Source: Stegostoma tigrinum (lineage: Eukaryota). Taken from it: a DNA stretch of 64,000 bases. The stretch is taken from positions 1,922,001-1,986,000 of the forward strand of contig NC_081396.1 of assembly GCF_030684315.1 (NCBI RefSeq), given 5' to 3'. The notes under the pieces were generated by a model that did not search any database, was not told the origin of the DNA, and saw nothing but the letters and a program-made list of their open reading frames with translations. Within the stretch, counting starts at the first letter, position 1; each line of letters opens with the position of its first letter. Positions 11,087 through 51,637 of this stretch are shown here, piece after piece. The translations under genes were made by a program, and so were the position numbers.

Positions 11087-11114
11087 GTTCCAGTACTGTC
11101 CATCAGATGGTGCT
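11087..11114 (+). promoter_or_regulatory. CTCF-like site 3' of V RSS
   Basis: GTTCCAGTAC-tgt-CCATCAGATGGTGCT (upstream motif plus core); paralogue CCAGCAGATGGTGCA at 47525-47539. Confidence 0.5.
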
Positions 11115-11289
11115 CTCACAAAAGAAATAGAAACATTAATTTCACACCTGCAGAGACCTTCTACTCAAAATATAACAGAATCCTTGGAGCGTGGATGTAG
11201 GACATTCATGTCATTGAGTCGTCATCAACTCTCCGAAAATTGTCCCGCTAAAACTAACTTTATCCTCGTGCTTTCAAGCCAAATACAGA

Positions 11290-11885
11290 CAGCGTGTTCA
11301 TCCCTGAACACGATGTGAAGTTTAACATTATCAATATTCCTAACCCACACACCTCTAGAAAATGGGAAGGAAACAGGAGCACCCATAAGAAACCGTGAAA
11401 ATGGACAGCTCCACACAGACAGTCAGTCCAGTCTGCAATAGTTCCCAGCCTTCCAGCAACTTGAGGAAGCTTGGAGATAACATGCCAACCAAAAGCTGCA
11501 ACATAGTGCAACAACTTACAAGGAAAGAAAATGATGCCTGATGGAGTAAAATTATTTTATCCCAATTCGCATTTTCATTTAAACCAGCATTTGTAAGCTT
11601 ATTCACAGAGTAGAAATCGTAGATTGTCTACAATGTTGAAGCAAGCCATTTGGCTCATCACATCTACACTGCCTCTCCAAAGAGCATACCACCAAGAGAC
11701 AGCGCCATCCTTTTAACACTGCATTTCCTTGGCTGGTCCACCTCTCTTCCACAACAATGGGCATAATGGGTCAATTTAGCATGACCAATCGACTTAACTG
11801 TACAGCTTTTCTCTGTAAGAAGAAACTGGCACACATGGAGGAAATGCAAGCAGACAAGCACTGAATATCTAAATTCCACACATAT
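11290..11885 (-). mobile_element. Two decayed HE1/V-SINE-like shark SINEs
   Basis: Resembles, from memory, the HE1 core (TGTGTGGAG..TGCAC...GGTTTC...GGTGCTCC.GTTTCC.TCCCA; CATGCTAAATTGACCC); paralogous pair at ~47730-48310. Confidence 0.6.
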
Positions 11886-12742
11886 TGAATGGCATTTTTT
11901 CTATTGTCTTTGGAGCAATTTCTCTGCATGTGTGTCGTACTGGTCAACCTTTCCACAACCCCACTGTTAGTTTCCTGGAACTTTGTACTGCTGTCTGTTT
12001 ATTGCGTTTAATTGATGTGCGTGTATTCTTAACTAATCCAGGGTGGATGCATAATGAGCATACTTATGAAAGCATTAACTCTGATCCTTAATCAAGCCCA
12101 AAACTTAAAGTGCCCGAACGTCAATTGCCCTTCAGTGTTTGCGATCAAAACTGGAACACTAGTGTTCTGTTTACTGGAAGAATTCTGGGCAATCATTCGA
12201 CCTCCCACCAAAGAGATCCCGATACACTGCAAGTGGACAATTGCCATTGACTGTCGTGTCTTCAGGATGTCAGCTCCAAGTTGGGCTTCAGGTTCACAAA
12301 TGCCATTCAGTCCACAGCCGTGTCATTTACTACTCTGATGGGAAGTCAATCAATGTCAAATCCATCTACAAATTCGAATTGATCAATCACTGTGAAGAAT
12401 TTACCTGACGATCTTCATCAACATGAAATTCTACTTTTTTGAGTTTCATATTTCAGTTTAAAGACCAGGCTGCCAGATGTAATAAATGTCAGGCTCTCAA
12501 TGCTTAAGATTTTTTTATTACTCCGATCACAAGGATGTGAGATTAATGTCAATAACAACGATTTTTGAGACGAAAGTGGCACCCACACAATTATAAGCAG
12601 TATTCACCATTCCTTCCTGCGCTGTAAGTGAGACCAGGCTACTCTCAGGCAATGATCTCATTGTTTTTTGCCTCTCTCTTTTATTCGATACTTTGCAGAT
12701 TTATGTAACACAAATGCATCCCCAGGAATCTGAACAGCGACG

Positions 12743-15700
12743 TTACAGTTTCTCCACGTTCATGCCGATTTTGGTGACTTTCATTGTCGGTAAGAAGTTT
12801 TACACTGAAGTATACGGTTCAACTTCTCCATCACTAAGTGTGAACCAAACCGGTATTCTTTTCAATACGTATGAGGCATTGGTTGCATTCTCCTTGAGCT
12901 ATTATGAAACGATTTCCTCTCTGTCTTGCAAGAAGAAGAAAGGGACACAACGTGTAAAAAATAAAAATGGAGTGATGATCTCAGCACTATGAGATAATCA
13001 TTTTCAAAACGAACAATCAAAACGGTGATACTTCAAAACAGCCTGAATAATGATCCAAAAGAAAACTTAAGGGAATTCTGTCTTTGCCTTAGAATAGGGA
13101 GTTTTTGAATCAGACTGTATCGTCATGAAGGGGATGTCAGATAAACAGATGACGAAGGTATGGAAAGATGGGCATGCAAAATCAGAACATTGGGTAACTT
13201 GGATTCTCTTTTGCATCGCTAACGCTGACATTGGCCAGTTTTTTCTGACGTAGGCTTATACTGAAAGGAAAAAAAATACAAAAATTCCTGTAAGAACTGC
13301 AACCAGAAGCATCACCAATTGGAGCGGAATTAAAACTATTTCTCACTCAAAAAAGCCATCTTCAGAACTGCATTTGTGGGAGTATGGTGCTCCTTGTGAT
13401 TTTTTGTTTTAATATGTTTAAATCCTGTACAATTTCATTGTACACCGAATGTCAGTTTTTTTTTAATATGTCAGTTTGAAATTTCAACTGAACCTCTAAG
13501 TCATCATTCTTGCTTTCTCTAACATTGCCTTTCAGGTCTGAGTGATGGTGTTTCTGTTACTCAGTGAGAGCCCTCATTCACTCAAACAAAGGGAAAATAT
13601 GTATCTTTAACCTGCACGTACATCGGTAATGTTTATTACTTGTTCTAGTACCGCCAGTCCCGTGGAAGAAAGCCTGAGTTCACAGACTGGGCTTTTGAGA
13701 GTAGAGCAGCGCGAGCCGGGCGGACGTGAGGTCAGGGCAGAGAGGCAGTTGGGAAGGTAAGTGAGTGGTATTTAAGTACTTACCTCGAAGCCAGCGGGTC
13801 CTTTTTGCTGCGGAGTGCTATTTAAGTAGATGTGTGCTTAGACCCAGGTCCTACACGGTAGGGCCTCCCTTCCACCCTCCTCCTCTAACCTAACTAAGAG
13901 TCCACAGAGTCACAGCAAGCACACAAAGGCTGAGGGAAGTGCCTGGTGAGTAAAGTGCGAGTTTTCGGTGAGGATGCACAGTCAGGAGATAACGCCACTG
14001 TTGAAGAGGGTGAAGACATGACTGCCAAGCTGATTCAGTGTGCTGCATGCATGATGCGGGAGGTCAGGGACACTGATGATGTTTCTGGCTCCTATAACTG
14101 TGGTAAGTGTGTACACATTTGGCTTCTGAAGGAGGTTGTTGCAGCACTGAAGAAAGAACTAGAAGACATCAGGCTCATCCGAGAGAATGAGAATTTTCTG
14201 GACAGGACCTTCAGCAGGTCACTACACCGAGGATACCTGAAGAGAGATGGGGGATGTCGATGACAAAGGAAGACATGAATGAAGTACAAATGACCCCAGG
14301 GGAAGCATCTATTGTAAACAGGCTGACTGTCTTGGAAACTGCCGAGACAGACGACACTGCCAGTCTGAGAGGTGGACAGGTCTGCAAGTCAAAAATTGCT
14401 GTAGAGGCAGAGCCAAGAAGTCAGACATCACGGAGAGCTGTGGTAATAGGGGACTCCATTGTGAGAGGGACTGACAGGGGTTTCTGCAGCAACAGGCGAG
14501 ATTTGAGGATGGTGTGTTGCCTTCCTGGTGCCAGGATCCAGGACGTCACCGATAGAGTGCAGAGAGTCCTCGAGGGTGAAGGTGAAGACCCAGAGGTGGT
14601 GGTGCATGTCGGCACTAATGACATTAGGAAGAAAAGGAGGAGCATTCTACAGCAGGACTTCAGAGAACTCAGAAGAAGGCTGAAAAGCAGGACTTCCAGG
14701 GTGGTTATCTCTGGTTTGTTTCCAGTTCCTCGGGCTGGAGAGGCCAGGGACAGAGAGATAATCGACCTGAACGTGTGGCTGAGGGACTGGTGTCGGAAGC
14801 AAGGATTTAAATTCTTGGATTACTGGGGTATGTTTTGGGGTCAGAATAAATTGTGCAGGAGGGACGGTTTGCATCTTAATAATCGGGGGACCAACTTTCT
14901 GGGAGGCAGGCTTGCCACTGCAACACAGGTGTGTTTAAACTAAGTAATGGGGGCGAGGGGCCAAACTGGAAATTTAAGAATGAAGTTAAAGGGAAAGTGA
15001 GAATAAGAGAAGTTAAGAAGGACAACAGAATCAACAGAGCAGAAGACTCAAGAAGAGATCATACAGTATGGCCAAGTGAAATAGGGATTGATAGGAAGGG
15101 TGAGGGGAGAAACAAATTAAAAATATTATATATGAATGCACGAAGCATAAGAAATAAGATGGATGAGCTTGAGGCTCAGTTGGAAATTGGCAAGTATGAT
15201 GTTGTGGGGATAACTGAGAGGTGGCTTCAAGTCGACAGGGCCTGGGAAATGAATATTCAAGGGTATACGTGTTATCGAAAGGACAGACTGGTGGGCAGAG
15301 GGGGTGGGGTAGCCCTGTTGGTGAGGAACGATATTCGGTCCCTTGCGAGGGGAGACCTAGAGTCAGGAGATGTAGAGTCAGTATGGACAGAGCTGAGAAA
15401 TTCTAAGGGTAGAAAGACCCTAATGGGAGTTACCTACAGGCCCCCAAACAGCAGCCAGGAGGTAGGGTGCAGGTTGAATGAAGAGTTGAAATTGGCCTGT
15501 CTCAAAGGTATCACTACAGTTGTTATGGGAGATTTCAACATGCGGGTAGACTGGGAAGTATCAGGATGGTACTGGGCCCCAGGAAAGGGAGTTTGTGGAG
15601 TGCCTTCAGAGATGGATTCTTAGAACAGCTTGTACTGGAGCCTACCAGGGAGGAGGCAATTCTGGATCTGGTGTTGTGCAATGAACCGGATTTGACCAGA

Positions 15701-18186
15701 GACCTCAAGTAAAGGAGCCATTAGGAGGTAGTGACCATAATATGAGAAGTTTTAATCTGCAGTTTGAGAGGGAGAAGGGACAATCGGAAGTGTCAGTATT
15801 GCAGTTGAATAAAGGGAACTATGGAGCTATGAGGGAGGAGCTGGCCAAAGTTCAGTGGTACAATACCCTAGCAGGGATGGCAGTGGAACAACAATAGCAG
15901 GTATTTCTGGATATAATGCAGAAGGTGCAGGATCAGTTCATACCAAAGAGGAAGAAAGATCCTAATGGGAGGCGGGGGCAGCCGTGGCTGATGAGGGAAG
16001 TTAAGGACTGTATAAAAATAAAAGAGAAGAAGGATAACATAGCAAAGATGAGTGGGAAGACGGAGGACTGGGAAACTTTTAAAGAGCAACAGTGGATAAC
16101 TAAAAAGGCAATACACAGAGAAAAAATGAGCTATGAAGGAAAACTGGCCAAAAATATAAAGGAGGATAGTAAAAGCTTTTATAGGTATGTGAAAACAAAA
16201 AAAAATGGTTACCACTAAAATTGGGCCCTTGAAGTCAGAAATGGGTGAAATTATTATGGGGAACATGGAAATGGCAGATGAGTTGAATGGGTACTTTGGA
16301 TCTGTCTTCACTAAGGAAGACACAAGCAATCTCCCAGATGCAGTAGTGGCTGAAGGACCGAGGGTAATGGACGAACTGAAGGGTATTTATATTAGGCAGG
16401 AAATGGTGTTGGGTAGACTGTTAGGTCTGATGGCTGATAAGTCCCGGGAACCTGATGGCCTGCATCCCAGGGTACTTAAGGAGGTGGCTCTAGAAATTGT
16501 GGACGCGTTGGTAATTATTTTGCAGGGTTCTATAGATTCAGGGTCAGTTCCTGCGGATTGGAGGGTGGCAAATGTTGTCCCACTTTTCAAGAAAAGAGGG
16601 AGAGAGAAAACAGGAAAGTACAGACTGGTTAGCCTGACGTCAGTGGTGGGAAAGATGCTGGAGTCAATTATAAAAGATGAAATTACGATTCATTTGGATA
16701 GCAGTAACAGAATAGGTCAGAGTCAGCATGGATTTACGAAGGGGAAATCGTGCTTGACTAATCTTCTGGAATTATTTGAGGATGTATCTATGAAGATGGA
16801 TAAGGGAGGAGCCAGTGGATGTAGTGTACCTGGACTTTCAGAAAGCCTTTGATAAAGTCCCGCATAGGAGATTGGTGAACAAAATTAGGGCACATGGTCT
16901 TGGGAGCAAAATACTGAGTGGGATTGAAAATTGGCTGGCTGACAGGAAGCAAAGAGTAGTGATAAACGGGTCCCTTTCGGAATGGCAGGCAGTGACCAGT
17001 GGGGTGCCACAAGGTTCGGTGCTGGGACCGCAACTGTTTACGATATCTATTAATGATATAGACAAAGGCATTAGAAGTAATATTAGCAAATTTGCTGATG
17101 ACACAAAGTAGGGTGGCAGTGTGAAATGTGAGGAGGATGTTATTAGAATGCAGGGTGACTTGGACAGGCTAGGTGAGTGGACAGATGCGTGGCAGATGCA
17201 GTTTAATGTGGATAAATGTGTGGTTATACACTTTGGTGGCAAGAACAGGAAGGCAGATTACTATCTCAATGGAGTCAAGTTAGGTAAAGGGGAAGCAAAA
17301 CGAGATCTAGGTGTTCTTGTACATCAGTCAATGAAAGCAAGCATGCAGGTGCAGCAGGTAGTGAAGAAAGCTAATAGCATGCTTGCCTTCATCACAAGAG
17401 GATTTGATTTTAGGAGCAAAGAGGTCTTTTGGCAGCTGTTCAGGGACCTGGTGAGACCGCACCTGGAGTATTGTGTGCAGTTTTGGTCTCCCGATTTGAG
17501 TAAGGACATTCTTGCTATTGAGGGAGTGCAGCGAAGGTTCACAAGGTCAATTCCTGGAATGGCGGGACTATCATGTGTTGAAAGATTAGAGCGACTGGGC
17601 TTGTATACTCTTGAGTTTAGAAGGATGAGGGGAGATCTGATTGAGACGTATAAGATTATTAAGGGATTAGACACTGTGGACGCAGGAAGCAAGTTTCCGC
17701 TGATGGGTGAGTCCAGGACCAGAGGACACAGTATAAAATAAGGGGTACGCCAAATAGAACAGAGGTGAGGAAAAACTTCTTCACCCAGAGAGTGGTGGAT
17801 ATATGGAATGCTCTGCCGCAGAAGGCAGTGGAGGCCAACTCTCTGGATGCTTTCAAGAAAGAGACAGACAGAGCTCTTAACGATAGTGGAATCAAGGGTT
17901 ATGGGGATGAGGCAGGAACAGGATACTGATTGTGGATGATCAGCCATGATCATAATGAAAGGTGGTGCTGGCTCGAAGGGCCGAATGGCCTACTCCAGCA
18001 CCTATTGTCTATTGCCTGTTGAACTAAGAAGGATTTTGCTCAGAAGCGGTTTTCTAGTACAGTCCAGCAGTCAGATAAGTCGTACCGATTGACGATCTCG
18101 GATCTGCTGCTGTTTGACACCACTGTCTGTTACTGTGTGGCGACCCTCACAGCCATGGGAACAATTGACAGTCTCATACAATAACT
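12743..18186 (+). pseudogene. TCR V pseudogene (paralogue of 49176-50290) split by a CR1 insertion
   Basis: Leader ends G|GTAAG at 12789 and the start codon is lost. The 5' half at 13536-13704 reads LSDGVSVTQ*EP...LTCTYIGNVYYLF*YRQ. The 3' half at ~18017-18147 reads DFAQKRFSSTVQQSDKSYRLTISDLLLFDTTVCYCVAT. RSS CACAGCC-23-ACAATAACT at 18148-18186. Confidence 0.9.
13705..18016 (+). mobile_element. Near full-length CR1-clade LINE (degenerate ORF1 + ORF2)
   Basis: ORF1 has a CxxC..CxxC finger and an SGNH esterase (VIGDSIVRG, HVGTND, DGLHLN). ORF2 has an APE endonuclease (YMNARS, GDFN, SDH) and RT ([17 protein letters not shown]). Stops and frameshifts are present; 3' tail CTATTGTCTATTG. Confidence 0.95.
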
Positions 18187-18549
18187 GCTGTAGTTTTCTG
18201 GGTCACAGCTGTTGCCAGTTGAGGGTTGTTTACAACGGGTTTCACACGCTGATCATTCGTACATTTCTGTGCAAGAAAGCTTCGAGCATAATTCCTATGC
18301 ACATCATTTCAAATCATTCACATGAATTATTGATTCTCACATTGACTCTGGCAGTTTAAAGGAGCAAACATCTGCATTTGTTTGTGTAAATCGCTGAAAT
18401 CGCAACTGCCAGGAAGAAAACAAATGCTTCATGTATAACGAGATGTATCCTTGCCTGACAGTATGAGAAAGACCTCGTTGCAAAGGAGCTCGTAGTTTTT
18501 AGTTGAAATATGGGTGCAAGACCTAATAATTATTATACACTGAGTGCAG

Positions 18550-18885
18550 ATCTCTCAATGTTAAAAGAATTTACACATATTAATTCCAAATATAGATATT
18601 ATTAGCAGGCTCAAGGGAAATGTTATCGTGATACAGCGAAAAGGTAATCAACAGAGAGAAATACAACTGTCATCTGCGACACAGACCTGGTGAGCTCCTG
18701 GTTCTCGAATGATTACTGGATGACCAGACACCAGACTGAGGTCAAAAGCCAAGCTGAAAACATAACAGAAAAATTGAAGGAATTGTTTTTGAAAATCTAG
18801 ATGAACCAGATGAGGATGATACTGCTGTTGTCATTTTAGAACACATCCCGCAGTGATCTGTAGCTGTTGTTCTGTCCAATGTCTT
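18550..18885 (+). pseudogene. Highly decayed V remnant
   Basis: IISRLKGNVIVIQ / RHRPGELLVLE*LL / KELFLKI / EDDTAV, followed by heptamer-like CGCAGTG. Confidence 0.45.
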
Positions 18886-19133
18886 TGCCAGGTAAAACAC
18901 AATGTTAGGTTTTGTAGAGTCAACAGTAATTGGATAACAACGCATTTGATTTACAAGTTGAGCACTCTCTAATCACATATTGACTTTTTTTTTTCAAAAT
19001 GTATTCAACGGAAGTGAGGAGAGGAAATCTTGCCCATTGCTGCACTTATGTGTTTCGTTTGGTAATTACTTTAGTTTATTTCAATTCAGCACATTCTGGT
19101 CTAATGTTAGGAAGTAAATACTATTCCCAACTC

Positions 19134-19690
19134 TACCAGTGACAGGATGCCTTCTGGTTCCTGTTAATGTGTCGCTCAACCCGCAGTAATACAACGCATT
19201 TCCAGACAGTTGTACCTCAGCAATGGTGAAATTCCCCGTCAGCTTTTCAAGCCCGCAGAGATGCAGAAAATCGAACGCGAATGACAATTCCTCTGATGAC
19301 ATTTCTGTATTTATGGATGAAGATGAAGAATGTCGATATTTGACGGGGGCACTGACAATCCAGTTGCAAAGCAAATCAATCACCTCTGATTGAACAGCAG
19401 AAATGAATAGTCACTGCATTTTCTTCCTTTGGTATGTCTGTAACCAGTCCTTGTGAGATGGAGAATGTGCAAACAACAACTGCAGAAAATTGAAAAGACA
19501 AGGGTTTAAAAAGGATTCTTATAATTAATGTTAACAAATTTAGTGCATACATTTTAATGCAGAGCACCACGGGCAAAAAAGAAGTTTTCTGTCCCCATAT
19601 TGCACAAAAAGAACAATTTGCGACTCAGAAGCTTACCAGTTAAGAAAACCATAGCAATTATGAATGATTAGATTGTAAGAGCCGAAATAT
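19134..19690 (-). pseudogene. TCR V pseudogene
   Basis: Leader-like ...IAMVFLT G|GTAAG at ~19636 and acceptor ttttctgcAG. Reads VVCTFSISQGLVT...KEENAVTIH ... RFSAS ... FTIAEVQLSGNALYYCGLS, then CACATTA + 23-nt spacer with a decayed nonamer. Confidence 0.75.
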
Positions 19691-20386
19691 TTAGAATGCT
19701 AATGGTGGGTTTAAGTAGATGGAGCTGAAACTGAATAGTCTCAGCTGAGACCTGATGGTGGCTTTAAGCTAAATAGTTTCAACTCAGCTTTGGGAAGATG
19801 TTGAGTGTTATCTTAAATCACTGCTGACTGGCTCTGTCGTAGCAGGAACACCACGCATCACCCAAACAACTCACAACGCCTCTGTTCTGAAGTCAATGAA
19901 ATCAAACAGCAAGTCGCAGAAACGCACAAAATGTGGTTCAAAACAAAAACCAATTGGCCCTTTAAACCTGCTTGGCTGTAAAATTGAGCACTTTGTAATT
20001 TCTGATGCAACCAGTCTCCTGCATAAACTTTTCAATCCTTTTCCCATTAATATCACCACTCATTCGACATAGTCTGAAGTGAACTGAAAACGGCTGCTCT
20101 CCGTGTTGTAACAGAAGTTAGAAATGGGAATTAATGCCAACGCAGGTTCTTAAAAGTGTTAATCCATAAATTTGGCCAGTGATACTTAACAATGGACGTT
20201 GTTGTGGTTTGGATGCATGAAACAGGTTGTATCATAAGCAATAAATATTAGAGAGAAGGATTCTCCGCAGAAAACAACGCAGAAAACGATCTGGGGAACA
20301 ACTGGCTGTTTTAAGTTTCTTATAAAATTAATAATGCACAATGGGGATCACACATCCGAACCAGTGACTCAGTGCGTTATGGTTTT

Positions 20387-20710
20387 CTTTTTATTAAACG
20401 AACTGACAGTGCCTCTGTCACGGTGTGGTAATCAGTGCGCCATAGAACATTGTAGCGTAGATGACAAGACCGCAGTATGTTATTCAGCTGTTTTCTATGT
20501 CTAGATTAATGGAAATCCGGCCAGATAGCCCTATAAACATATTTCCCTTTCACTTGCCAAATTGTGCTGTCTGCCAAGCAATAAATGTACATCTCATTGT
20601 GGAATTTAGGTCAAGATCTTTGTGGCATTTTGTACTTTTCATGATATCAATGTCAGAGTTCAGGGTATTACGATTGTTACTTTAGTTTTGTCTTTTTTTT
20701 TACTGTCCTA
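20387..20710 (-). pseudogene. Highly decayed V remnant
   Basis: GLSGRISINLDIENS ... ATMFYGALI (cf. SAMYYCAL), followed by CACCGTG-23-AATAAAAAG. Confidence 0.5.
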
Positions 20711-21184
20711 TTAAACATGAAGGGAAAATTATTTCAGAGCTTAGAAATTCCTGTTCTAATTCACTCCCTCTGAACTTCATGGGTGTGAATGATATCAGAA
20801 CTCATGTACATATTTCTATTCCGCGTTTATCGTACTCTTTCATCAATTTCCTGTCAACAGTCATAGCAATAATTGGACGTCAAACTATTTCCTACTGCTC
20901 CAGCAACCAGATATAGTAGTGATATCAATAATTAAGACTATCTTCATTGAGACCCATGTAATCATCTTTACCATTCTTTCATATTTTACATCAGGTGTGG
21001 GAGAGTGGAATTTTATCGACAAGAAATACCCACCCTGTCATGAGTTAATGATGAGGAGGTGCTAAGAGAGAGTTCTGTTTTATACTTCTCTAGTCTCTTT
21101 GTTTTTTGAGAGGGAAACATTCAGTTGTAGGCGAATTACAAGTCGTTGTTGCATTTTTGTTTCTGATCTAACCAATCACAAGAG

Positions 21185-21420
21185 TGCACCGGCAGCAGTA
21201 ATCTCTCTTATTGAACAATTCAGAAAGGATAACACGCCACAAAGAGAACAGTGGGCTTCCAAATGCAATATCAAAAGAAAGAAAGTGTGCAATGGCTATC
21301 GATAACAGCCACAGTTATGGCACAGAAATAGTGAAGCCGGGATCTGAAGAAGTCTGTCTACAATTGGCACGTTTGCAATGTTGACTGCTGAAGACCAACT
21401 AAAGCAGTAGCATGAGTGGA
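21185..21420 (+). pseudogene. Possible V remnant
   Basis: SLIEQ...KCN...(W)YR*QP ... LTAED, in the order expected for FR1-FR3; no RSS recognised. Confidence 0.3.
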
Positions 21421-22094: not shown

Positions 22095-22410
22095 TGCGAT
22101 GTTGGCATCGCCAGCTTGACCAATATTTACCATCCCTCTGTATTTTCAAGAGGGCTCTTGAAAATCAACCACATTGCTATGGTTCTGGAGTCATGTGTCG
22201 ACCAGACAAGACAAGAATGTCCGTTTTATTCTCTAACTAACATGAAAGAACCATGTGCGTTTTCTGATAATCGACAATGGAGTCATGGTAATCATTGGAC
22301 TCCTAAATCAAGATTTTCCTTGGATTCAAAGTGTGGGTTTCGAATCGGTTACCTATATCTCTGGATTAACAGTCCTGCGATAATACCACTCAAAGATCAC
22401 ATTCCATATT
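22095..22410 (-). mobile_element. Shark SINE fragment (possibly Deu-domain/SacSINE1-like)
   Basis: TCAACCACATTGCTATGGTTCTGGAGTCA...GACAATGG resembles a common shark SINE core; family assignment from memory. Confidence 0.45.
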
Positions 22411-24485: not shown

Positions 24486-26000
24486 TTGTGAAACGGTAAT
24501 CTATGATAAGCTCTGAAAATGCAATGTTGATGTGTTCCATCCACCATGATTGAGGGTAGGCACAATAATTCGAAATTCCAATTTCAGCACCAATTTAAAC
24601 AACAGGAGGTTACCGATTTTAATTTAATTATATTTCTCGCTGACCTTCACTGCTGTGTTCAATCAGAAAATAAGTAAAAGATATTTGACTGGATGTTGAT
24701 TTTTGTCTCTCTCCAGAACATACTGCCAGCAGAAATGCGGATATAGTTACATCTTGCTATCAGTTACCATACAACTATTTCAGGTTGAACCTGTTTCCCC
24801 TCGAACCTGTCTGAGGAAACATGTTAGGGCGTACATTTTACTTCTTATCAGCTCTGATGAAGAGTCATCTCGACATGAAACTTCAGCTTGCTCTCTCTTC
24901 ACGAATTCTGATTGACCTGCTGTGATTTCCAGCATTATATGTTTTGACACTTTTTACTTAGTTGTCTTCAAGTTGGCTATATTATATGGTAAATTTCAAA
25001 ATTATGCTGTCACGAATAATCTATTTAATCGAAGTCTGAAATATCATATATTGGTTTGAAGTGAAGGTAACTATTTGGATGCCTTCTGTCCCAATATGGA
25101 CGAGATTTGCTTCAATTTGCAAATTAAAGAATATGTCTGGTGAACATTTAGGCAAAAAGTTCCAGCCTGAACCTTACGCACTGGTTTCAATTCTTTAATT
25201 TAAAAGACACAGGACGCATAATCTGCAGATGCTCCTTTACACCGCAGCATTTGCACTTGAAGATTGTATCGCTTTGAACGGACAGGAAGTTTATTGGAGC
25301 AATTTGAATGAACCATCTGGTGCACCATCCTATTGCAGCAGTGCATAATGTGACAACAGTTTTTCTTTTGCAAAACGTGTGTGAGCTCATGATATTTGTA
25401 TATCAATACATTTCGATGTGAATAATAGAGTCCAATAAAATCCAACTTCTGCATAGTTTGTTCTGATTGTCAGAACTCCATTACAATCGCCACTTAACTT
25501 ATCTGATTCTGTTTGATGATTATGGTTGGAGGTCCAACAGAGAATATTGTGGATTTCAAATATGAAACTTACTTTTATTCAACATTTCACACAGGTGTTG
25601 AAAAAGAAAATATTTAATTCATCGCCTAGGGGCGGATCATATGATAGAAATCTGTGACCTGGCTGTCTCTGGTAACATTCTGTTGAATTCATTCAAATCT
25701 GCGTGTGTAGAAGTCAGGCATTTCTATTCAATTTTCCATTCCTGTTAATGCAAAGCTGATATTTCAAAATGAAAGTATTGAACTGCAAGTTTTGCAAAAC
25801 TGCATTGTTAAAACTTCTCCAGTGTAATTAAATATCCGTGATATGGATAAGGGTCACTCACTGGAGTGATAAGAAGGGAAAATAGTGGAGTACTTTATAG
25901 ATCTAAAGGAATTTTTTTAATTCTATGAACTATTCTTCTCGTCTTAAGTATATGACTGTTCATCTGGAGCTGAACTGTTGTTTCGGTTTATTGGTGAGAA

Positions 26001-26015
26001 AGCGCCTTCTGGTAC
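26001..26015 (-). promoter_or_regulatory. CTCF-like site 3' of V RSS
   Basis: GTACCAGAAGGCGCT ~25 bp past the nonamer; paralogue ACACCAGAAGGCGCT at 51611-51597. Confidence 0.5.
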
Positions 26016-26039
26016 GCTCTAACCAGCACTATCAGGCTG

Positions 26040-26079
26040 AGTTTATGTCGAGGCTGTGCCATAACTCTGCATCAGTGTG
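26040..26079 (-). promoter_or_regulatory. 23(24)-spacer recombination signal sequence
   Basis: CACACTG + 23 nt + GACATAAAC (or 24 nt + ACATAAACT) after YFCAME. Confidence 0.8.
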
Positions 26080-26566
26080 GGCTCCATAGCACAAAAGTAC
26101 ACAGCGGAGTCATCGAAGGTAGTACTGTTGATTGCTAACTCAGTAACCTTCGTGGATTTCGTAAATTTGAATGAGAATCTGTCAGACAAATCAGGATTTC
26201 TGTTCAGAATCGTTTCTGCAATCATGTAAACCATCAACTGTGGAGGCTGCCCTGGGAACTGACTGTACCAGTAAGTATAAGCAGTGGAATCGCTTGTCTT
26301 CAAGCTGCAGGTTACTGTGACATTGTCTCCCTCTTTAACTGTCATTTCAAGATCTGGCTGCTCCACCGAGTTTTGCTGAGTCCCTTGGGGAAAAAAAAAG
26401 CTAAATTCAACTCACAATCATTACCATCGTCGTTTTACTAATAAAATCAGCTTGGGTGCAAACCTCTACGGCAGGGTAATTGGAATGTTGTTGGGGAAAT
26501 AAAAAACAAAACACACTTACTGAAGATTGTTGTAATGATGAGGAGCAGTGCGAGAAGATTCCTCAT
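26080..26566 (-). CDS. T-cell receptor alpha/delta V gene segment, apparently intact (leader exon 26566-26521, V exon 26383-26080)
   Basis: Leader MRNLLALLLIITTIF+A|GTAAGT. V reads TQQNSVEQPDLEMTVKEGDNVTVTCSLKTSDSTAYTYWYSQFPGQPPQL...DRFS...DDSAVYFCAME with no stops. The in-frame acceptor is an AAG after a T-tract. Confidence 0.9.
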
Positions 26567-26574
26567 GGCGCATT

Positions 26575-30640: not shown

Positions 30641-30654
30641 TCCAAAATGCAAAT

Positions 30655-42249: not shown

Positions 42250-43780
42250 ATTGCCAGTTCTCAGATACTTTCTCCTATTTCCTCCTGGACCATGACCCCA
42301 CAGTGCAACATCAGGCTACCACCACCGAACACATTTCATCTGATGACCTGCCCAACACTGCTCCCAATATCAGAGTCTCTCAACAAAGCAAGGCTCATTT
42401 CTACCTCCTTATCAAAATGTGCAAACAGTCTCCCCGGGCAGTCCCGTCAATTCCACCTGCTCCTGTCCAACAGAACGTATTCCTGCCTTCTTCAACGCGC
42501 CTTTTCTCTCCCGTTGTCCAGTCGCTTCACTAATACATTTGTAATTCCTTCAACGTTTTATGTCAATTTCAGAATTTCCAGCGAGTGACGTTCAACCACC
42601 TCCTTTTTACCTTTGAATTGCAATCGATTAAAATATCAAATACTCATTATATCAGTCTCAAGGCTCTCCTCTTTTTTTTTGTCTGGAAAAGGGCCTGAAC
42701 CGTCCACATCAGCCATCACCCTCCTCTGTCTGGAGGAGCAAAACTTTAATTCTGAACAATTTCTATTTAAAGTTGCCTCGTTTACTGCAGGTAAAAGTTG
42801 TGGCCATGGGTACCTGCACAGGGGTCATTTATGCCTCTTCGTTTGTAGAATACATGGAAAATTTCTACTTACAGTTTTATTCATTTGCCATCCACAGACC
42901 TTTCTCCAGCATTTTGATTATGTATAGCTGTTGTTTCACTCTCTTGTCCATACTTGGAAAGGTTTGTCAGTTTTCCTTCTAATTTTCACACTCACTTTTT
43001 GATATCTTACTCCCAGTATCCTTTGCATCTATTGTGATAATGTGAACCTCGATAATAATGCGTAACAACAATCCACCTTCTTCTTGAAACAAATTTCCTC
43101 GCATAGGGCAGGCAGTTGTTTCTGCGTTATCTCCTACACTTCAGATCCGACGAAAGTTAAAGTGTTCCCCCTTGTCCTCATCAATCGTCTCACTAGTTTC
43201 ACATCCAGAGCATAATCCACTGTCATTGCCACCACATCCAGTGTGAAGGCACTACCAGGAAAAAAAAACCTGTTCTTCTCCCCTCCTTTGTTAGCTTTCT
43301 GCAAGAATGGTTTCATCTGTAACACAAAGTTCCACTTCTCCTTCACTCCCATCGCTCACTGCAGTACCACTGCACCTCCCCATGCAACTGCGGAAGGTGT
43401 AACACCTGTCCGTTTACTTCCATATTTCTCAAAATCCATGGGCCTAAACAGATCTTCCAGGCTGAAGCAACTATTTGTCTGTATTTCAATCAAAATAGTC
43501 TACTGCATTCACCCTTTCCTACATTGGGAAGATGAAATGTAGACTAAGGAGCTGCTTCACAACATATTTATGTTCTCTCTACAGATTGGATCTGAGATTG
43601 TCATTGTCTGCCCCTTCAACACGCCACCTTGCTGGTCAGGCAACATCTCTGTGCCAAGCTTGCTGTAGTGCACCTGCGATGCTCAACACAAACTGCGCGA
43701 AGAACAGTTTATTTGAGTTTTGAAAACTCTACTACCTTGTGAAATCAATATCGACTTGAACAATTTTTTGGCCTTCGGCT
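42250..43780 (+). mobile_element. Decayed Penelope-like element
   Basis: FYLLIKMCK, LQVKVVAMGT and IVYCIH motifs; paralogue of 6095-7835. Confidence 0.7.
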
Positions 43781-44475
43781 CCTTCACCGCCCTTTCACAC
43801 AATTCACACATCACTCCTTGTTGCAATGAATAAAGAAATTATGCAGCACAACTCGTCCACGCTGTACATAGCCTTGAAGTAAATACTTCCCGCCTGCCTG
43901 CCCTGGCCCATAAATCTCCATGTTCATTTGCTTTTCTAAGTGCCTTTTAAGCACTGTAATTGTGCCCACATCTACCACTTCCAATGCTAGGCACAAATAG
44001 TATTAATTAGAAGCTATTTATTCTCATTGGCTGACTGTTAACTACTTACTATTCTTTCAACTGCATTTGTCTCTCTTTGGTCTCCATATAAACCTTTAGT
44101 TTATTAATACCTTCTGCATTAAAACAACTGTTAACTTGCTACTATCAGTTCGGAACAAGCTCCACTGAAGCTGAAACATTAATTCTGCTTTTTCTTCACA
44201 GAAATGTCGAGAACTGTTGTGTTTTTTAGCAACTTCTGTTTTGGTGGACTATGTGAATTGCTCCCTAACGCATCTAATGATTTCATGTCTAATTCAAAAT
44301 TCTCAGCAATTCAGATACGGCAGTTTTGTTTTCACTGTTGCCACTGTTAGGATTTCCCAGTCATTTTAACGGTTATAACACAAATAACAAATCTCCGTTC
44401 CCTGGACAAAAATGACATTGAGTTTGTGAGCCTGAAAGTCCCGAATCAGAACCACGACACCCGCAGGGAAGACAC

Positions 44476-45174
44476 TGTAGAAGATAAAGTAATGGAAAGT
44501 AAGTAACATACCAGAATATCAAATAAGTCAATAGACCAGCAATTGCAAGTATACCAACATAAATATATGGGAAGTAAAGTGCCACACCAGCATGTTAGCA
44601 GAGATCAAAGGGCAGTAACAGCTAAGTGTTAGGTTAGCATAGATCAGACATCAGGCCGGATACAGGCCAGCAAATGTCAACAATTAAGTCAAGTAGCTGT
44701 GTAATGTCAACTGTTAGCCATGTAGTTCAGCTGCTAAAATAATAGTAGCATAATGTAACTAGGACGATCATTAAATCACGTGATCATGTAATTGTAGCTG
44801 TTCACACAATGGCGGCATAATAAAAGTTAAATCGTGTGAATGCTGAAGGCCACAATGATATGGCGTAATAGGCTAAGGGTAGGGTAAAAGACCATTGTGG
44901 CAGTCATGATTTGGAAGACGAATGGCTTTAGAGAGATAACGCGAACTAACACAATTGGTTTATTGCATGTTTGTAGAGAGATAACTCTAGTTGGCACAAT
45001 TCACCATGGTGATAACCTTAGAGGAGCATGACAACTGAAAGTTATATAACATGACAAACCCCGAGTGTCCAGGACAATCGGAAAACCACGTTCTGATTGT
45101 CACAGCCTTTGGTTGCAAAGAAAGGATTACTTTCCAGAAGAATTATCTACGTCTCCTGGTCATTCTGTATGACA
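44476..45174. mobile_element. Solo LTR (699 bp) with 4-bp TSD
   Basis: TGT...ACA termini flanked by ACAC at 44472-44475 and 45175-45178. The paralogous site in cassette A (~8545, gcagACACcttccagg) is empty. Confidence 0.85.
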
Positions 45175-47027
45175 ACACCTCCCAGGTTTTCATCCTTTCT
45201 GAATAAAACAGCCTTGACCTCTTTATCTCAAATTATTTTCACTAGATTTAGATTTCTCCACCAGGCTGATCCATTCGTCGTGGTTTGCTAACGTGGGAAA
45301 GGCCCTTCAGCCGATATTGTAAGTGCTAGTCATCAATGTCTATCTGTTCTCATTTCAATTTCCAGCATTTGGTCAATAGCCTAGAGCGCTCTGACATATG
45401 AAGTGCACATCTAAATAGTTATTCAATTGTTTGAGGGTTTCAGTGGAAAACAAAATCTCCTTCACCCAATGATCGGAATTTTCTGTGACCACTGGAACAT
45501 AAATCCACAATTTCGCATTTGAAGGCTGTTCTGCATGGCCAGACTTTTTCTCTGAGTTGTTTCTCATATTCCCTAATGTGTTGTCTATATATCAGAACGC
45601 CCCTGCAAAGCGCTGGGGAAATTCCATTTTAAATTCTACTAATGACATGAATGTCATTTTTTTTTTCTTGAGTAGAGTAATAGAAAGAAACTGAATAGAA
45701 TAGAAAGAATTTAGTGCAAAGTGCAATTAAAATGTCACCGCTGTGACATTACAAAAATCTAGTACAAGAAGACAAAGTTTTAAACAGTATTCTGACCAAG
45801 AAAAATAAAATCATCAAAATTCACTCAAATTATCGCCCTGTAATCTGAGAACATTCAAGCCAGGCTTCAGAGCTCGAGGGGTCGATGTCTCATTGCGCTG
45901 TCCTCCAGCCAAAGTCTCACCAGCAGAACTGATCTTCTCGATCTGGACTCGATGCAGACTCCCTTTGGTTCCAGTTTCCAGCCTGCGATTTCGCCACCAG
46001 TACACGTCTAAAGGAATTTTCTTCACGAAGACACCAGGCTCACAATAATTCCCACGCCAGGCTCAGATCCACGACTCGCCTCCAGGACTCGTCTGTCAGC
46101 CTGTCTGAGCTCGGAATACCTTTCGTGCTGCCCCCCTTTCCAGGCTTAACTCGGTTGTAGAACTTGCCTGTCGGACGGACCTAGCTTCGGACTTGCTCTT
46201 GCACCAGGGTCTGCCTGCAACTCGCCTCCGTAATTGTCCTTGTGCCCTGGCACGTTCTCTCACTCGTCTCCTGCACTCGTCTGAACTGAGGTTCGGCTCC
46301 TCATTTCTGCATTCCCTTTGGGTAAGTTTAAGAAGTTAAACGTTGATGGCAGAGAGTGGAAGAAAAACTACAGAATATAGAAGAGAAAATAAAGAAAAAT
46401 GACAAGGAACTAGCTAATCAGAGGAGTTCTGGCTGGATCGTCCGACTGTGCCACCATCTTGCACTGAAATCACGAATTACAGCAGGTATGCTTCCACTTT
46501 GCTTCCAAAGATTGGTCACTGCACTGTAAACGTTGTCTCTGCTTTTGTTCTGTTGCTGCAGTCAAACGAATTGCGTTTCTCCAGCAATTTCCGCTTTGTT
46601 TCAGAATTATGTAACGGATGGCTCTTTGTATTATGTTACCCTGATTTGCTGATGTCTATAAACAGTATAAAACACTTCTTATAGTTTTTTTTTATTTATT
46701 ATTTTTAATTGATTTGCCCCCAGAATCCACACCATCATGAAAAGCTGGAATAGATGGTAGAGAACATACAGGCAGTGAAAGACACCAAGTACGATGAATT
46801 GAACAGAATGACAAACGAGTTCACTGAGAAGGAAAAAGGAGAAAGTAATTCTATGCAACTGTCATTAATTGGAGCATAACTGTCATTGGCTCTGTCATGG
46901 CAGCAAATCCTGTTCCTGAAAAACTCCACTCAAGTACACAATAACTGATAGCTGACCCTGAAATGGGATAAAATGTTTAAAAAAAACCTACTGGTTTATT
47001 TTTCTGTTGTCATCTTATCCTAACATC

Positions 47028-47490
47028 ATGTGTTTCCCATGATTTTCCTCATTTTAATGGTCTTCCTGTCTGCTGAGTCTGCGATAAAACAGAATAATCA
47101 ATCCGGAATTACGTGACCTTTTTAAGTTTTCAATCATGTTCAGTTTGTGTTTCCGGGTTGGGTGATCAGGATTCAGTGTCTCAGGGCTCAACTAAATTCA
47201 TGTTTCTGGTAGCCCAGAGCATCATAATCGAGTGCTGTTGCACACAACTCTTCTATCTGCTACACAATCTAGATGAGGAAATCTCTAAGATACTTCCTGA
47301 AGATGTACATCAGGGAGGTTGAAGAGAAATCTTCAGATATAGTGTCAGGTTCTCTGCTGAATAAAACAAACACAAAAGACAAAACGGTTGTGGTACATAT
47401 CTTTGGGAACCTTCTATCTAACTGTGTGTTGCATTTCTGTGGCATGAAGTGCACATGAATGCACAGGCATGTCACTCATTTCCAAACACA
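47028..47490 (+). pseudogene. TCR V pseudogene (cassette B copy of 10587-11063)
   Basis: GLGDQDSVSQGSTKF...IIIEC...RYFLKMY...LLSNCVLHFCGMK, then CACATGA-23-CCAAACACA; splice sites are mutated. Confidence 0.75.
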
Positions 47491-47729
47491 TACCCCACTC
47501 ACATAACGAGAGTACTAGCACTGTCCAGCAGATGGTGCAGTCGTATTAACAAACAGAGGCAATAATTTCACCTCTGCAGAGACCTCCTTCGAGAAAAAAA
47601 ATCATAGAATTCCCACAGCGTGGATGCAGGTCATTCAGTACATCGAGTGTTCACCCATCCTTTGAATAGTATCCCAAAACAGACGCTGCCCCCGTGTTTT
47701 CCAGCAAAATCCGGATCGCCTCGACATCC

Positions 47730-48310
47730 CCGGGCACTGTGGTGAATTTGGCATTCCCAATCCACCTAACCTGCGCATCTGTGGACAATGGGTAAATGAG
47801 GAACACCCATAGGAAAACATGAGAATGGCCAGCTCCACACAGTCACCTCAGACTGGAATCGTACCTGGCCTTCTAGCTCTGTGAGGGAGCATCGAGTTAC
47901 CATAACACACAAAAAGGCATAACAACCAATGCAGCCAAAAAGGAAATTTGATTCTCACTGACGGGCTGGTATTGTTTAATTCCAACTCCTATGTTCATTG
48001 AAATCAACATTTGTAAATATGTACATAGAATGCAAATCATACATTCCCTGCATTGTCCAAGCAGGCCATTCATCCCATCACGTGATCAACACCTCTCCGA
48101 AGAGCATCCCAACGACACACAATCCCGTCCCTGTAACCCTACATTTCCCATAGTTAGTCCACCTAGACTCTACAACCCTGGACATAATGGGACAATTTAA
48201 CATGATACAACTAAATAACTTGTAGGCCTTTCAACTAAAGGAGGAAAACAGCACCATTGACGGAAAGCCACGCAGACAATTGTTAAATATCTAAAGTTCA
48301 CACAGGTTTA
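47730..48310 (-). mobile_element. Two decayed HE1/V-SINE-like shark SINEs
   Basis: Same motifs as 11290-11885. Confidence 0.6.
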
Positions 48311-49062
48311 ATCACTTTTTTTGTCTCTTAAAAGCATTTATCTGCATGTCTATAATATTGGGCAACCTTTCAGAATTTCCACTGTCAGTTTCACTGGGCA
48401 TTTAGTGTGGTGTGTTTATCGTTTTTATTCGATGCAAGTGTATTGTTAATTCGTCCACAGAGGATGCATAATGAGAATACTTCCTAAAGCATTGACGCTG
48501 ATCATTAAAACATCCCCAAAACATAGAGCACCCAGATGTCAAATGTTCTTTTGGATGTTCGTTCAGCATTGGCATATATGTGTTCTGTGCAGGAAGAATT
48601 CTTGGCAATCATTCACAGATCCCAGCAAAAAGACTCCCATACATAGTGAGTGGGTAATTTCCACTGGCTGTGGTCTTTCAGTATGCCAGCTCCATTTTGT
48701 ACTTGAAGCCCACAAATGCTGTCCTTTCAACAGCCGTGGGTCTCTGTAGAAATGGCAAAAATCACATTATGTGTCTCTGACGGGAAGCCAATCAAAGCCA
48801 AATCCACCAAAAAATTAGGTCTGATTAGCCACTGTGTAGCAATTAACTGAAGGTTTTCGTTGGCATTGCATCTCGACTTCTTTGATTTACATGTTTCAGA
48901 TTAAAGAGCAGACTGTCAGCTTTATTAAATTCCAGCCGGCCTATATTTATTCTTCTTTTTCTCTGAACACCAGAATGTGGAAGTAATGTCACAAACATCG
49001 ACTTTTAGGTCGAAAGTGATAGCCAACCAATCATATTTCGAGTTTGTAGCTGCTTGCTGCGA

Positions 49063-49140
49063 AGGAAATTACATCAGATATCTCTCAGCAAATGATCTCA
49101 AACTTGTCTCTCTCTTACATGATATGTGGAGATTTATGTA
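49063..49140 (+). promoter_or_regulatory. Putative V promoter: ETS-like GGAAA, decamer-like AATGATCTCA, TATA-like TTTATGTA
   Basis: AATGATCTCA at 49091-49100 is an 8/10 match to the TCR V decamer AGTGAYRTCA and lies ~80 bp upstream of the ATG. The same decamer and TATA-like motif are conserved in the paralogue at 12651-12707. Confidence 0.5.
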
Positions 49141-49175
49141 GTGTAAACAAATCCCGAGGAATCAGAGCAGCAGTG

Positions 49176-50290
49176 ATGCAGTTCTCAAACTTTATGGTAA
49201 TCTCATTGACTTTCATTGTCGGTAAGAAGTTTTACGTTGAAGAAAATTGTTCAATTTTATTAACACTTAGTGTGAACCAAACGGGTATTCTTTTCAATAG
49301 GTATAGACATTGGTTGCATTACATTTGAGCTGTTGTGAACCGATTTACTATATGTCTTAAAAGATGAAGAAGAAAGGAACACAAAGTGTAAAAAGAGTAA
49401 TTAGAGCAGTGATCCCAGTATTATGAGACAATCACTTTTGGATAATATGATCCAACTTGCGGTGTTTCATAAGAGTCAGAATAATGATGCAAAACAAAAC
49501 TTAAGCGAATCCTGTTTTAGCTTAAGATTATAGAACGCATTGGTGCAAGGGTTGTTAGAATTAGACCAGAACGTTATGAAGTGTGCGTCAGCTAGACAGA
49601 CGAAGACGAGATGGAAAGATGGAAATGCAGCTAAAAGTAAAACAGGGGATTACATGATTCTCGTTTGGGTTGCTAAAATGGGTAGTGGCCAGTTTTTTTT
49701 TCCAAAATAAGAACTTATGTCCAAGAGAAAAGGAAACAAGAATTGCTTGGGGAACTCTAAACGTCGGGCAGCATCATGGACAGAAACATAATTAAAACAA
49801 CTTGTGTTCCTCTAGCCAATTTCAGAATTATGTTCGCTGGCGAACGGTCCCCTTCTGTTTCATTTTCATTTTCATATTTAAATTCCTGTCTAGTATTATG
49901 TCTCAGTATTGTGAGTTTTTTTTCGTGACCGTTAGTTCGAACGTTCATCTGAAACTTTAGTCACTCATTAAATTTTTATTTTCCAGATCTAAGTAATGGA
50001 GTTTCTGTTACTCAGCGGCAGCCCGCACTCACACAAACAGAGGGAGAAGAAGTCACTTTCGCCTGCACATACACTGGGAATGTTTATTACTTGTTTTGGT
50101 ACCGCCAGTACCCTGGCAGACAGCCCGAGCTCGCAGTCCGGAAGTCAGAGAGCAGTGGTGCTGAGTTCAAGGCGGACTTTGCCCAGAAGCGGTTTTCTGA
50201 CACAATCCAGCAGTCAGACAAATCATACCAATTGACGATCTCGGGGCTGCTGTTGTCTGACACCGCTGTTTATTACTGCGCAGCGAGCCT
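49176..50290 (+). CDS. T-cell receptor alpha/delta V gene segment, apparently functional (leader exon 49176-49221, V exon 49987-50290)
   Basis: Leader MQFSNFMVISLTFIV+G|GTAAG and acceptor ttccAG. Spliced V reads DLSNGVSVTQRQPALTQTEGEEVTFACTYTGNVYYLFWYRQYPGRQPE...FAQKRFS...LTISGLLLSDTAVYYCAAS, with conserved Cys/Trp/Cys and no stops, followed by a 23-RSS. Alpha versus delta cannot be resolved here. Confidence 0.93.
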
Positions 50291-50329
50291 CACAGCGATG
50301 GGAACGAGCTTAAGGCTCGTACAATAACT
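50291..50329 (+). promoter_or_regulatory. 23-spacer recombination signal sequence
   Basis: CACAGCG + 23 nt + ACAATAACT directly after YYCAAS. Confidence 0.93.
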
Positions 50330-51637
50330 GCTGCAAGTTTCTGGGTCACATCTGTTGCCTGTTGAAGACTGTTGCTGACACGGCTTTATACACTGGCTCT
50401 TCTGTACGTTACCGTGCATGAAAACGTCGAGAGTAATCCAAACTAAAATAGTTTAAAATCGTTCAAATGTATTATTGATTCTGACGTTGGCACTGACTGT
50501 GCAAACAAGCAAAATGACTGTTGTTTGTTCAGCGAACAGAGCGATTTTGCAACCATTATGAATAAAGCAATTCTGTTTAGTAGGAAACATGCAATGTCGA
50601 AATGTTGATTTGAAGTGAAGGAACCTATCTGGATCGCTTCTGCTCTAATTCTGATTACTTTTCTTTTCAATATGCGACAGAACCCTTTAGGTAGTTGAAA
50701 GCACACATCTGGCGAACATTTAGACAAAATGCTCCATTCCGAGCCTAGCACACTGATTTCAATTATTTAATTTAAAATACACAGAGCTCATGACCCTACT
50801 AATAATCGGCAGATATTGCTCTTCACTACAGCAGGTGCAAGTGAAGATCGAATTCCATAGCAACCCACGTGGCATTCATTAAAACAATTTGAATGAATCG
50901 TATGACGCACTGTCCAATGGCAGCAGTGAATAAAGTGACAACAGTTACATTTTTTTTCCAAAACATCTGTTGAGTTATGATATTTGTAAATGTGTGTGAC
51001 AACGCATCCTGACTTGAAAGATAGATTGTAATAATTTTCAACTTGTCTCTGAAAATTATGGTCTACGCTGAGGAGTCAGAGTACAACGGTCTCTTACCAG
51101 CTTGATTCCGTTTAATGACTATCAATGAATGTCTTACCCAAAGTATTGTCGATTTCAAATGTGAAGCTTCCACTCATTCAACATTTCACAGAGCATTGAG
51201 GAAACATTTAATCCACCGCTGAGGAGTGAACGTTGAGTCAGAAATCTGTAAGTTGGTTATTTGTGATGCTTGTTCAGATGAATTCTTTAAAATTGCAGAC
51301 AGAGGAGTGAAGCATTTCACTTATTTTAACTATTCAGTCTGCTATTCCTGTTAATTGGAAGCTGTTATTTCAGAATTTATGGAATGAACAGTAAGTTTTA
51401 CATTGTCATGTTGTTAAAAGTTCGCTGGTGAAATGAAATTTCCATGACTATGGATGAAGGTCATTCTCTGGAACGATAAGAAGAGAAAATAATGAAATAA
51501 TTATCGTGCAAAAATTAAAATACACATATGAACAGATTTTCTCACTTCTTTTGTTCGACTGATCCTTCACTGCTGGTTTGTTCTTTCAAGTGTTAAAGCG
51601 CCTTCTGGTGTGCTGTAAGTGAAACTGACCGGTAAAG

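What the first reader, a model, noticed from the sequence alone, without database searches (positions are those of the whole stretch)
11087..51611. CTCF-like motifs just 3' of V RSSs, co-oriented with each V
Seen: CTCF-core-like motifs ~25-40 bp downstream of the nonamer in two unrelated V families, conserved in both cassettes (11100+, 47525+, 26015-, 51611-). Motif orientation flips with the V. Known: RSS-adjacent CTCF elements in mouse proximal VH genes promote V usage during cohesin-mediated RAG scanning. Inference: RSS-proximal loop-extrusion control of V(D)J recombination may already exist in cartilaginous fish.
Basis: partly seen in the sequence, partly recalled or inferred. Interest (0 to 1): 0.7.

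Follow-up and report, generated by a model that had tools for sequence, protein, structure and literature searches.

The report
CTCF sites behind dead shark V-genes
Behind one family of broken shark T-cell-receptor gene pieces sits a well-preserved match to the DNA motif of the genome-folding protein CTCF, but almost none of the intact pieces has one, so these sites likely help fold the locus rather than boost use of the piece they follow.

Summary
The window is part of a shark-type TCR alpha/delta V array. Three of the four motifs score as CTCF sites (13.7, 17.8, 11.2 bits, recalled matrix). The fourth, behind the only intact V of the four, scores 1.7. Locus-wide, 0 of 69 intact and 12 of 85 broken Vs carry an RSS-proximal site, the reverse of mouse proximal VH. 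The two families likely share one ancestral flank, so co-orientation follows from duplication. In the dead + strand family the site is better kept than its flanks (p 0.003-0.016), and 3 of 3 further relatives found by homology score 18-25 bits. In the - strand family it decays (p 0.96). J segments lie on the - strand, so 55 of 69 intact Vs are inverted and would join by inversion, which linear RAG scanning cannot do. Best reading: CTCF anchors likely carried and kept by dead Vs, not usage elements. Better support for ancient CTCF control lies outside the window: strong motifs at mouse EACBE-, TEA- and INT-like positions, and a motif 35 bp behind 9 of 9 distal TCR-beta-like Vs. No binding data exist here. 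The scan's notes show no earlier report of this.

The parts
10682..11024 (+). V pseudogene, family A, copy 1 (stops and frameshifts; inverted relative to J)
11025..11063 (+). decayed 23-RSS (AACATTG, 23 nt, CCAAACACG)
11083..11091 (+). conserved block upstream of the core; partial likeness to the CTCF upstream motif (motif recalled, tentative)
11097..11115 (+). CTCF core-like site, 13.7 bits, 33 nt after the nonamer
26082..26378 (-). intact V exon, family B (leader at about 26521-26566); same orientation as J
26040..26079 (-). RSS with 24-nt spacer (CACACTG, 24 nt, ACATAAACT)
26000..26018 (-). decayed likely homologue of the site, 1.7 bits; not a credible CTCF site
47123..47451 (+). V pseudogene, family A, copy 2
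47452..47490 (+). decayed 23-RSS (CACATGA, 23 nt, CCAAACACA)
47522..47540 (+). CTCF core-like site, 17.8 bits, best hit of the window, 31 nt after the nonamer
49998..50329 (+). intact V with 23-RSS and no RSS-proximal CTCF site; lies about 2.5 kb 3' of the 47522 site
51679..51973 (-). frameshifted V, family B, copy 2
51637..51676 (-). RSS with 24-nt spacer and poly-A nonamer
51596..51614 (-). moderate CTCF-like site, 11.2 bits, 22 nt after the nonamer

Best explanation
A CTCF-motif match lies 20-40 bp behind the RSS of one clan of TCR alpha/delta V segments, was likely spread and flipped with each duplication of the V, and is likely kept by selection behind dead Vs as a chromatin loop anchor within the V array rather than as a usage element for the V it follows. 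Shown: the motif, its place, the dead state of the carriers, the orientation of V, J and motif, and slower change at the informative motif positions. Inferred: one ancestral site; CTCF binding; cohesin stalling. Inferred function: such anchors, with convergent sites around D-J-C, would fold a 5-Mb, mostly inverted V array into loops that bring intact Vs near the recombination centre for diffusion-based joining, as described for mouse Igk and Tcrb. In family B the site has been lost without loss of the V.
For: Family A (8 copies found by an exon-based profile without the motif, all broken; 6 score 10 bits or more): mean score 11.1 vs 4.3 simulated at the flank rate, p 0.003. Six-copy set p 0.003 and 0.011; its four copies outside the window p 0.016. 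Exon divergence (0.21-0.23) equals non-coding flank divergence (0.18-0.22), so the V was likely dead while the motif was being kept. Sister family A': 3 of 3 copies found by DNA homology score 18.1, 24.7 and 20.4 behind decayed RSSs. Changes at the 8 informative vs 10 tolerant positions: 9/128 vs 34/160, Fisher p 8e-4; 39 distinct changes cost 1.78 bits on average vs 3.03 for random ones, p 0.009 (families A, A', C). 0/69 intact Vs have a site of 10 bits or more. J, D and C are on the - strand at 844-961 kb of contig C55; 55/69 intact Vs and most A/A' sites are on +. RAG scanning cannot do inversional joins (PMC10772921 passages).
Against: No binding, accessibility or contact data. The matrix is recalled from memory and mammalian. 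Simulations assume a star tree and a consensus ancestor, and the family was first noticed for its motif. 2 of 8 A copies and 2 more relic flanks' worth of evidence are mixed: 1878507 scores 1.6, 1578963 about -7, relic 1613391 1.8, relic 2026900 11.1. The whole 19-mer is not exceptional: 10-14% of other 19-bp windows are as conserved in A, 63% in A'. A' alone is not significant (p 0.11) and was seeded from a copy found by its score. Family B was left out of the pooled test; it shows no constraint (p 0.96; 6/40 vs 9/50). Strong hits in the array have no common polarity (31 +, 23 -). One genome only.
Confidence: 0.5

Rival explanations
1. Neutral relic: the site served an ancestral functional V of this clan and is now decaying everywhere; apparent conservation is ascertainment and consensus bias.
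For: Family B decays neutrally; several A copies lost the site; A' is too young to test (p 0.11); the number of independent lineages is small.
Against: Informative positions change about three times less than tolerant ones; copies outside the window still beat the neutral model; exons evolved at the neutral rate over the same time.
Confidence: 0.22
2. The A-family site acts as an upstream CTCF element for the next V in the cassette, about 2.4-2.8 kb downstream, like the 2-3 kb upstream class of mouse VH sites.
For: The RSS end of the next V lies 2766-3115 nt 3' of 5 of 8 A sites, 3 of them intact; mouse upstream sites occur at about 0.8, 2-3 and 5-6 kb (PMC6746451 passage).
Against: Retention does not track the neighbour's state: 1.6 bits beside an intact V, 18.3 and 14.9 beside broken ones. 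No annotated V follows the A' sites in my list (list incomplete).
Confidence: 0.13
3. One reading: RSS-proximal CTCF sites stall cohesin and raise use of the attached V during linear RAG scanning.
For: Distance class resembles mouse (17-19 bp) and human (19 or 48 bp) VH sites. Family B is deletional with the motif facing J. On contig C59 a TCR-beta-like clade has a motif about 35 nt behind the nonamer in 9 of 9 Vs, 6 intact, all facing D-J-C.
Against: In mouse, recombining proximal VHs have the site and pseudogenes lack it (PMC7930373 passage); here 0/69 intact vs 12/85 broken. The three intact B members score 1.7, -1.5 and -4.8. Most Vs are inverted.
Confidence: 0.1
4. The conserved block binds another factor, for example an E-box protein, and resembles CTCF by chance.
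For: Both window A sites contain CAGATG; 6 of 8 C59 sites keep CANNTG, and their changes are not CTCF-matrix-biased (p 0.33).
Against: Most A and all A' copies have CAGAGG or similar, which breaks the E-box but fits CTCF; A' sites are near the matrix optimum.
Confidence: 0.05

Closest known systems
RSS-associated CTCF sites of mouse and human proximal VH genes (PMC6746451 passages; review PMC7930373 passages)
   Same: Motif just 3' of a V 23-RSS, co-oriented with the V, confined to particular V lineages.
   Different: Here behind broken Vs with decayed RSSs and absent from intact ones; spacing to the core varies (about 21-45 nt); no common polarity; best sites face away from J.
V-region CTCF elements of mouse Igk and Tcrb that fold the locus for diffusion-based joining (PMC10772921 passages)
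   Same: V array with inversional joining; sites scattered among Vs; likely loop anchors.
   Different: Here many anchors are embedded in pseudogene flanks; binding is untested.
Mouse Tcra/d INT1-2, TEA CBE and EACBE (PMC4995090, PMC12310595, PMC7515734 passages)
   Same: Outside the window: a tandem pair 3' of the alpha-type C, one site just 5' of the first alpha-type J, and a cluster between D and the first V that is convergent with it.
   Different: Motif matches only; no sequence homology to mouse was tested; EACBE orientation was not stated in the passages read.
CTCF-oriented TADs in little skate (PMC10115646 passages)
   Same: Shows that the CTCF orientation code and loop extrusion exist in cartilaginous fish.
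   Different: Fin tissue; the CTCF passages say nothing on antigen receptor loci.

Membership tests
CTCF binding element | core motif match above background | tested here: met
   3 of 4 window sites 11.2-17.8 bits; 26018- fails at 1.7 (recalled matrix)
CTCF binding element | constraint concentrated on informative positions | tested here: met
   families A, A', C: 9/128 vs 34/160; not met in family B
CTCF binding element | upstream motif at 5-6 bp | tested here: inconclusive
   conserved upstream block in A/A' matches the recalled motif only in part; a stricter pattern is found at 4 of 42 other hit families (pattern chosen after seeing hits)
CTCF binding element | occupancy by CTCF and cohesin in vivo | not testable with these tools
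   no ChIP, ATAC or RNA run listed
Mouse VH-type RSS-associated CBE | fixed short distance 3' of the nonamer | tested here: inconclusive
   21-22 nt in B and C, 28-42 nt in A; not one fixed spacing
Mouse VH-type RSS-associated CBE | found at functional Vs, lacking at pseudogenes | tested here: not met
   0/69 intact vs 12/85 broken
Mouse VH-type RSS-associated CBE | V deletional and site facing the recombination centre | tested here: not met
   A and A' mostly + while J is -; met only for the decayed B family
Mouse VH-type RSS-associated CBE | loss of the site lowers use of that V | not testable with these tools
   no repertoire data
TCR alpha/delta locus | V array with 23-RSS; D with 12/23 RSS; few J and a C; many 12-RSS J and a second C | tested here: met
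   both C exons are C1-type Ig domains, but the alpha and delta labels come from layout, not from best hits
INT / TEA-CBE / EACBE scaffold | strong sites at the three positions, INT and TEA convergent | tested here: met
   18.5, 17.0 and 20.1 bits; random placement p 1.5e-4, windows and cut-off set after seeing the hits

The most novel reading that the evidence does not exclude
The CTCF scaffold of V(D)J control predates the split of sharks and bony vertebrates: the shark TCR alpha/delta locus keeps EACBE-, TEA- and INT-equivalent anchors, dead V genes are retained as carriers of loop anchors across an inverted V array, and a distal TCR-beta V clade uses true mouse-VH-style RSS-adjacent CTCF sites.
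Probability: 0.35. Interest if true: 0.75.

Novelty: new variant of a known kind. Interest (0 to 1): 0.5.

Why it matters
How RAG reaches V segments megabases away has been worked out almost only in mice. This gives named, testable CTCF candidates in a shark TCR locus whose Vs are mostly inverted, where linear scanning cannot be the main route. If bound, they would date CTCF control of V(D)J recombination to the origin of jawed vertebrates and show pseudogenes kept for an architectural role. The finding as first stated, sites that boost the attached V, does not hold in this window.

Tried and rejected
No RNA holder listed for window 46900-52200; V usage stayed untested. Three bisulfite runs laid on that stretch gave almost no depth at the motifs, with mapping dominated by repeats; nothing learned on methylation. 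A second sample of the same study differed at 5 of 5301 bases, too close to inform and possibly not independent. An exact 12-RSS pattern found no match on C55; a J coding pattern did. A transposon origin of the motif was not supported: the V plus flank has 6 matches, all in the V array, and a tight upstream-plus-core pattern has 5 genome matches, 3 of them A copies; these searches skip very common words. The test for A-B flank homology with the core masked was mixed (B p 0.02, C p 8e-4, but several best offsets out of register). The first A8 test included two copies found by their score and is not used; one search replaced it. The simulation p for the C59 clade is inflated by non-homologous downstream flank and is not used. 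No RSS-proximal same-strand site of 8 bits or more in 11 C5, 6 C51, 6 C60, 2 C10 Vs, 5 more C51 Vs or 18 IgH-type Vs on C55. Structure-bank searches did not name the C exons as alpha, delta or beta by best hit. The primary paper on VH CBE mutation was not available; a review was used.

Full report
Setting. The window is G000:C55:1922001-1986000 of a 3.2-Gb genome. V-like matches run from 0.97 to 5.8 Mb on this contig. A J coding pattern gave 79 genome matches, 73 on C55, all on the - strand: 64 at 851-916 kb and 9 at 952-961 kb. A D with 12/23 RSSs lies at 961 kb, a C exon at 947 kb and a second at 844.5 kb. This is the alpha/delta layout; the labels are inferred from layout, since structure-bank hits only show C1-type domains. 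Multi-C Ig clusters lie at 0.24-0.56 and 2.8-4.9 Mb, in line with the elasmobranch linkage in PMC12227049 (search listing; passages, 0 occurrences of CTCF). 'Shark' rests on this layout and on the scan's notes.

The observation. The four motifs are present and co-oriented with their V. I scored them with a CTCF count matrix recalled from memory (MA0139.1-like, from no call) and with the consensus printed in PMC6746451 (passages). Scores: 11097+ 13.7, 47522+ 17.8, 51614- 11.2, 26018- 1.7 bits; 2, 1, 2 and 3 mismatches. The + Vs (family A) carry stops and decayed RSSs. The V at 51679-51973 is frameshifted. Only 26082-26378 is intact, and it has the failed site. Of 9 V segments in the window, the 5 not cited score 6.2 or less. 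The two cassettes are one duplication of about 69% identity.

Locus-wide test. I fetched 120 stretches of 10 kb around V hits (1.24 Mb with the window) and annotated 174 Vs by profile plus 39 by DNA likeness. Dropped before the count: 3 rows on C11 and C50 without RSS, 34 Vs on other contigs, 18 IgH-type and 4 distant Vs on C55. That leaves 154 (69 intact, 85 broken by script criteria), a lower bound because only part of the array was fetched. A same-strand hit of 10 bits or more right after the nonamer occurs at 12 of 154, against at most 4 in any other 100-bp bin. But it occurs at 0 of 69 intact and 12 of 85 broken Vs; at 7.45 bits, 2 of 69 and 15 of 85. With the published consensus at 2 mismatches or fewer, 9 of 154, 1 intact. 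In mouse the pattern is opposite: recombining proximal VHs have the site and pseudogenes lack it (PMC7930373 passages).

One origin. A and B exons fall in different clades, without strong deep support. Yet A, its sister A', B and a third family C align through V end, RSS spacer and about 55 bp of flank. An A flank profile hits C flanks, and A' matches an A flank at 86% over 62 bp. A masked-core test was mixed. One ancestral site is therefore likely, not proven. Flipping with the V is then expected for any sequence 30 bp from the RSS and is no separate evidence.

Constraint. In 8 A copies found with an exon-and-RSS profile, exon (0.23) and non-coding flank (0.21-0.22) diverge alike, while informative core positions diverge 0.11; mean score 11.1 vs 4.3 simulated, p 0.003. 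The four six-set copies outside the window give p 0.016 for the mean and 0.065 for the count over 10 bits. Three further A' copies found by homology score 18.1, 24.7 and 20.4, all behind decayed RSSs; A' alone is not significant (p 0.11). Pooled A, A', C: 9/128 changes at informative vs 34/160 at tolerant positions. Against: B shows none (1 of 7 over 10 bits, p 0.96), two A copies lost the site, and as a plain 19-mer the core is not an outlier. Across 1.26 Mb of C55 the true matrix finds 39 hits of 15 bits or more vs a mean of 5.4 and a maximum of 11 in 30 column permutations; duplicates and repeat-borne hits are included.

Orientation. With J on -, + Vs must join by inversion: 55 of 69 intact Vs. 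RAG scanning cannot make such joins; Igk and Tcrb use loops plus diffusion (PMC10772921 passages). Inversional TRAV joining is known in salmonids (PMC8559430 passages). The best-kept A and A' sites point away from J. Hits of 13 bits or more in the array split 31 + and 23 -, unlike the single polarity at Igh.

Mechanism. Shown: motif, dead carriers, orientation, biased conservation. Inferred: CTCF binds the A-clan sites and stalls cohesin, making anchors that subdivide and compact the array. In the 5.52-5.67 Mb cassettes A' sites pair back to back with a second, non-RSS site family, a boundary-like layout.

Stronger leads outside the window. In 769-979 kb the four hits of 17 bits or more are 830848+ and 832012+ (a tandem pair 12-14 kb 3' of the alpha-type C exon), 918595+ (2.5 kb 5' of the first alpha-type J) and 965763- (between D and the first V, with three weaker - hits). 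Mouse has two sites 3' of the alpha enhancer, a TEA site, and INT1-2 convergent with it (PMC12310595, PMC4995090, PMC7515734 passages). Random placement of three such windows reaches 17 bits in all with p 1.5e-4, a post hoc test. On C59, a TCR-beta-like locus by layout, the 9 distal Vs of one clade all carry a motif about 35 nt after the nonamer (6.5-17.5 bits; 6 intact; one shifted by an insertion), facing D-J-C; the 6 proximal Vs score below 0. It is better kept than the near flank (0.12 vs 0.17-0.24) but not in a CTCF-specific way, and 6 of 8 keep an E-box.

Novelty. Eight literature searches (listings only unless named above) showed no report of CTCF sites at shark TCR loci; subscription papers and supplements were not seen. 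CTCF loop extrusion in cartilaginous fish is known (PMC10115646 passages; bioRxiv 10.64898/2026.10.19.759930 passages). The scan's notes showed nothing on this (8 of 24 shown; 0).

Noticed in passing
G000:C55 830848+, 832012+, 918595+, 965425-967175- (L126, L134, L139): Strong CTCF motifs at the positions of mouse EACBE, TEA CBE and INT1-2, the last two convergent around D-J-C delta. Probably more important than the finding itself.
   Followed up: partly
G000:C59 6231758-6280571, - strand: CTCF/E-box-like motif about 35 nt behind the 23-RSS of 9 of 9 Vs of the distal TCR-beta-like clade, deletional and facing D-J-C; absent from the 6 proximal Vs and from the sister clade on C51.
   Followed up: partly
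G000:C55 0.97-5.8 Mb: 55 of 69 intact alpha/delta-type Vs, including the most J-proximal, are inverted relative to J although they lie 5' of D-J-C.
   Followed up: partly
G000:C55 5523130-/5524828+, 5586345-/5591249+, 5625245-/5629287+, 5663236-/5667995+: Four repeated back-to-back pairs of strong CTCF motifs, a boundary-like layout.
   Followed up: partly
window 50347-50352 and 23 relatives: The family of the intact V at 49998-50288 keeps CANNTG about 18 nt behind the nonamer in 22 of 24 copies by my reading, with changes mostly at the two middle letters; an E-box-like element.
   Followed up: no
G000:C55 5446658+, 5511886+, 5576316+, 3813071-: CTCF motifs of 15.8-17.6 bits 650-730 nt upstream of the RSS end of intact Vs, near their promoters.
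   Followed up: no
window 26040-26079 and 51637-51676: Family B and relatives use a 24-nt RSS spacer as a clan trait, also at intact Vs.
   Followed up: no
window 13715-18025: A 4.3-kb insertion with broken long reading frames splits a V exon (13538-13714 and 18026-18145); looks like a LINE by recalled resemblance, not tested.
   Followed up: no
G000:C10 5689778-, 5866052-: Two light-chain-type Vs with 12-RSS have an opposite-strand CTCF-like word about 10 nt behind the nonamer (9.9 bits in one).
   Followed up: no
G000:C51 and C59: Two contigs each hold TCR-beta-like V and C segments with interleaved V clades.
   Followed up: no
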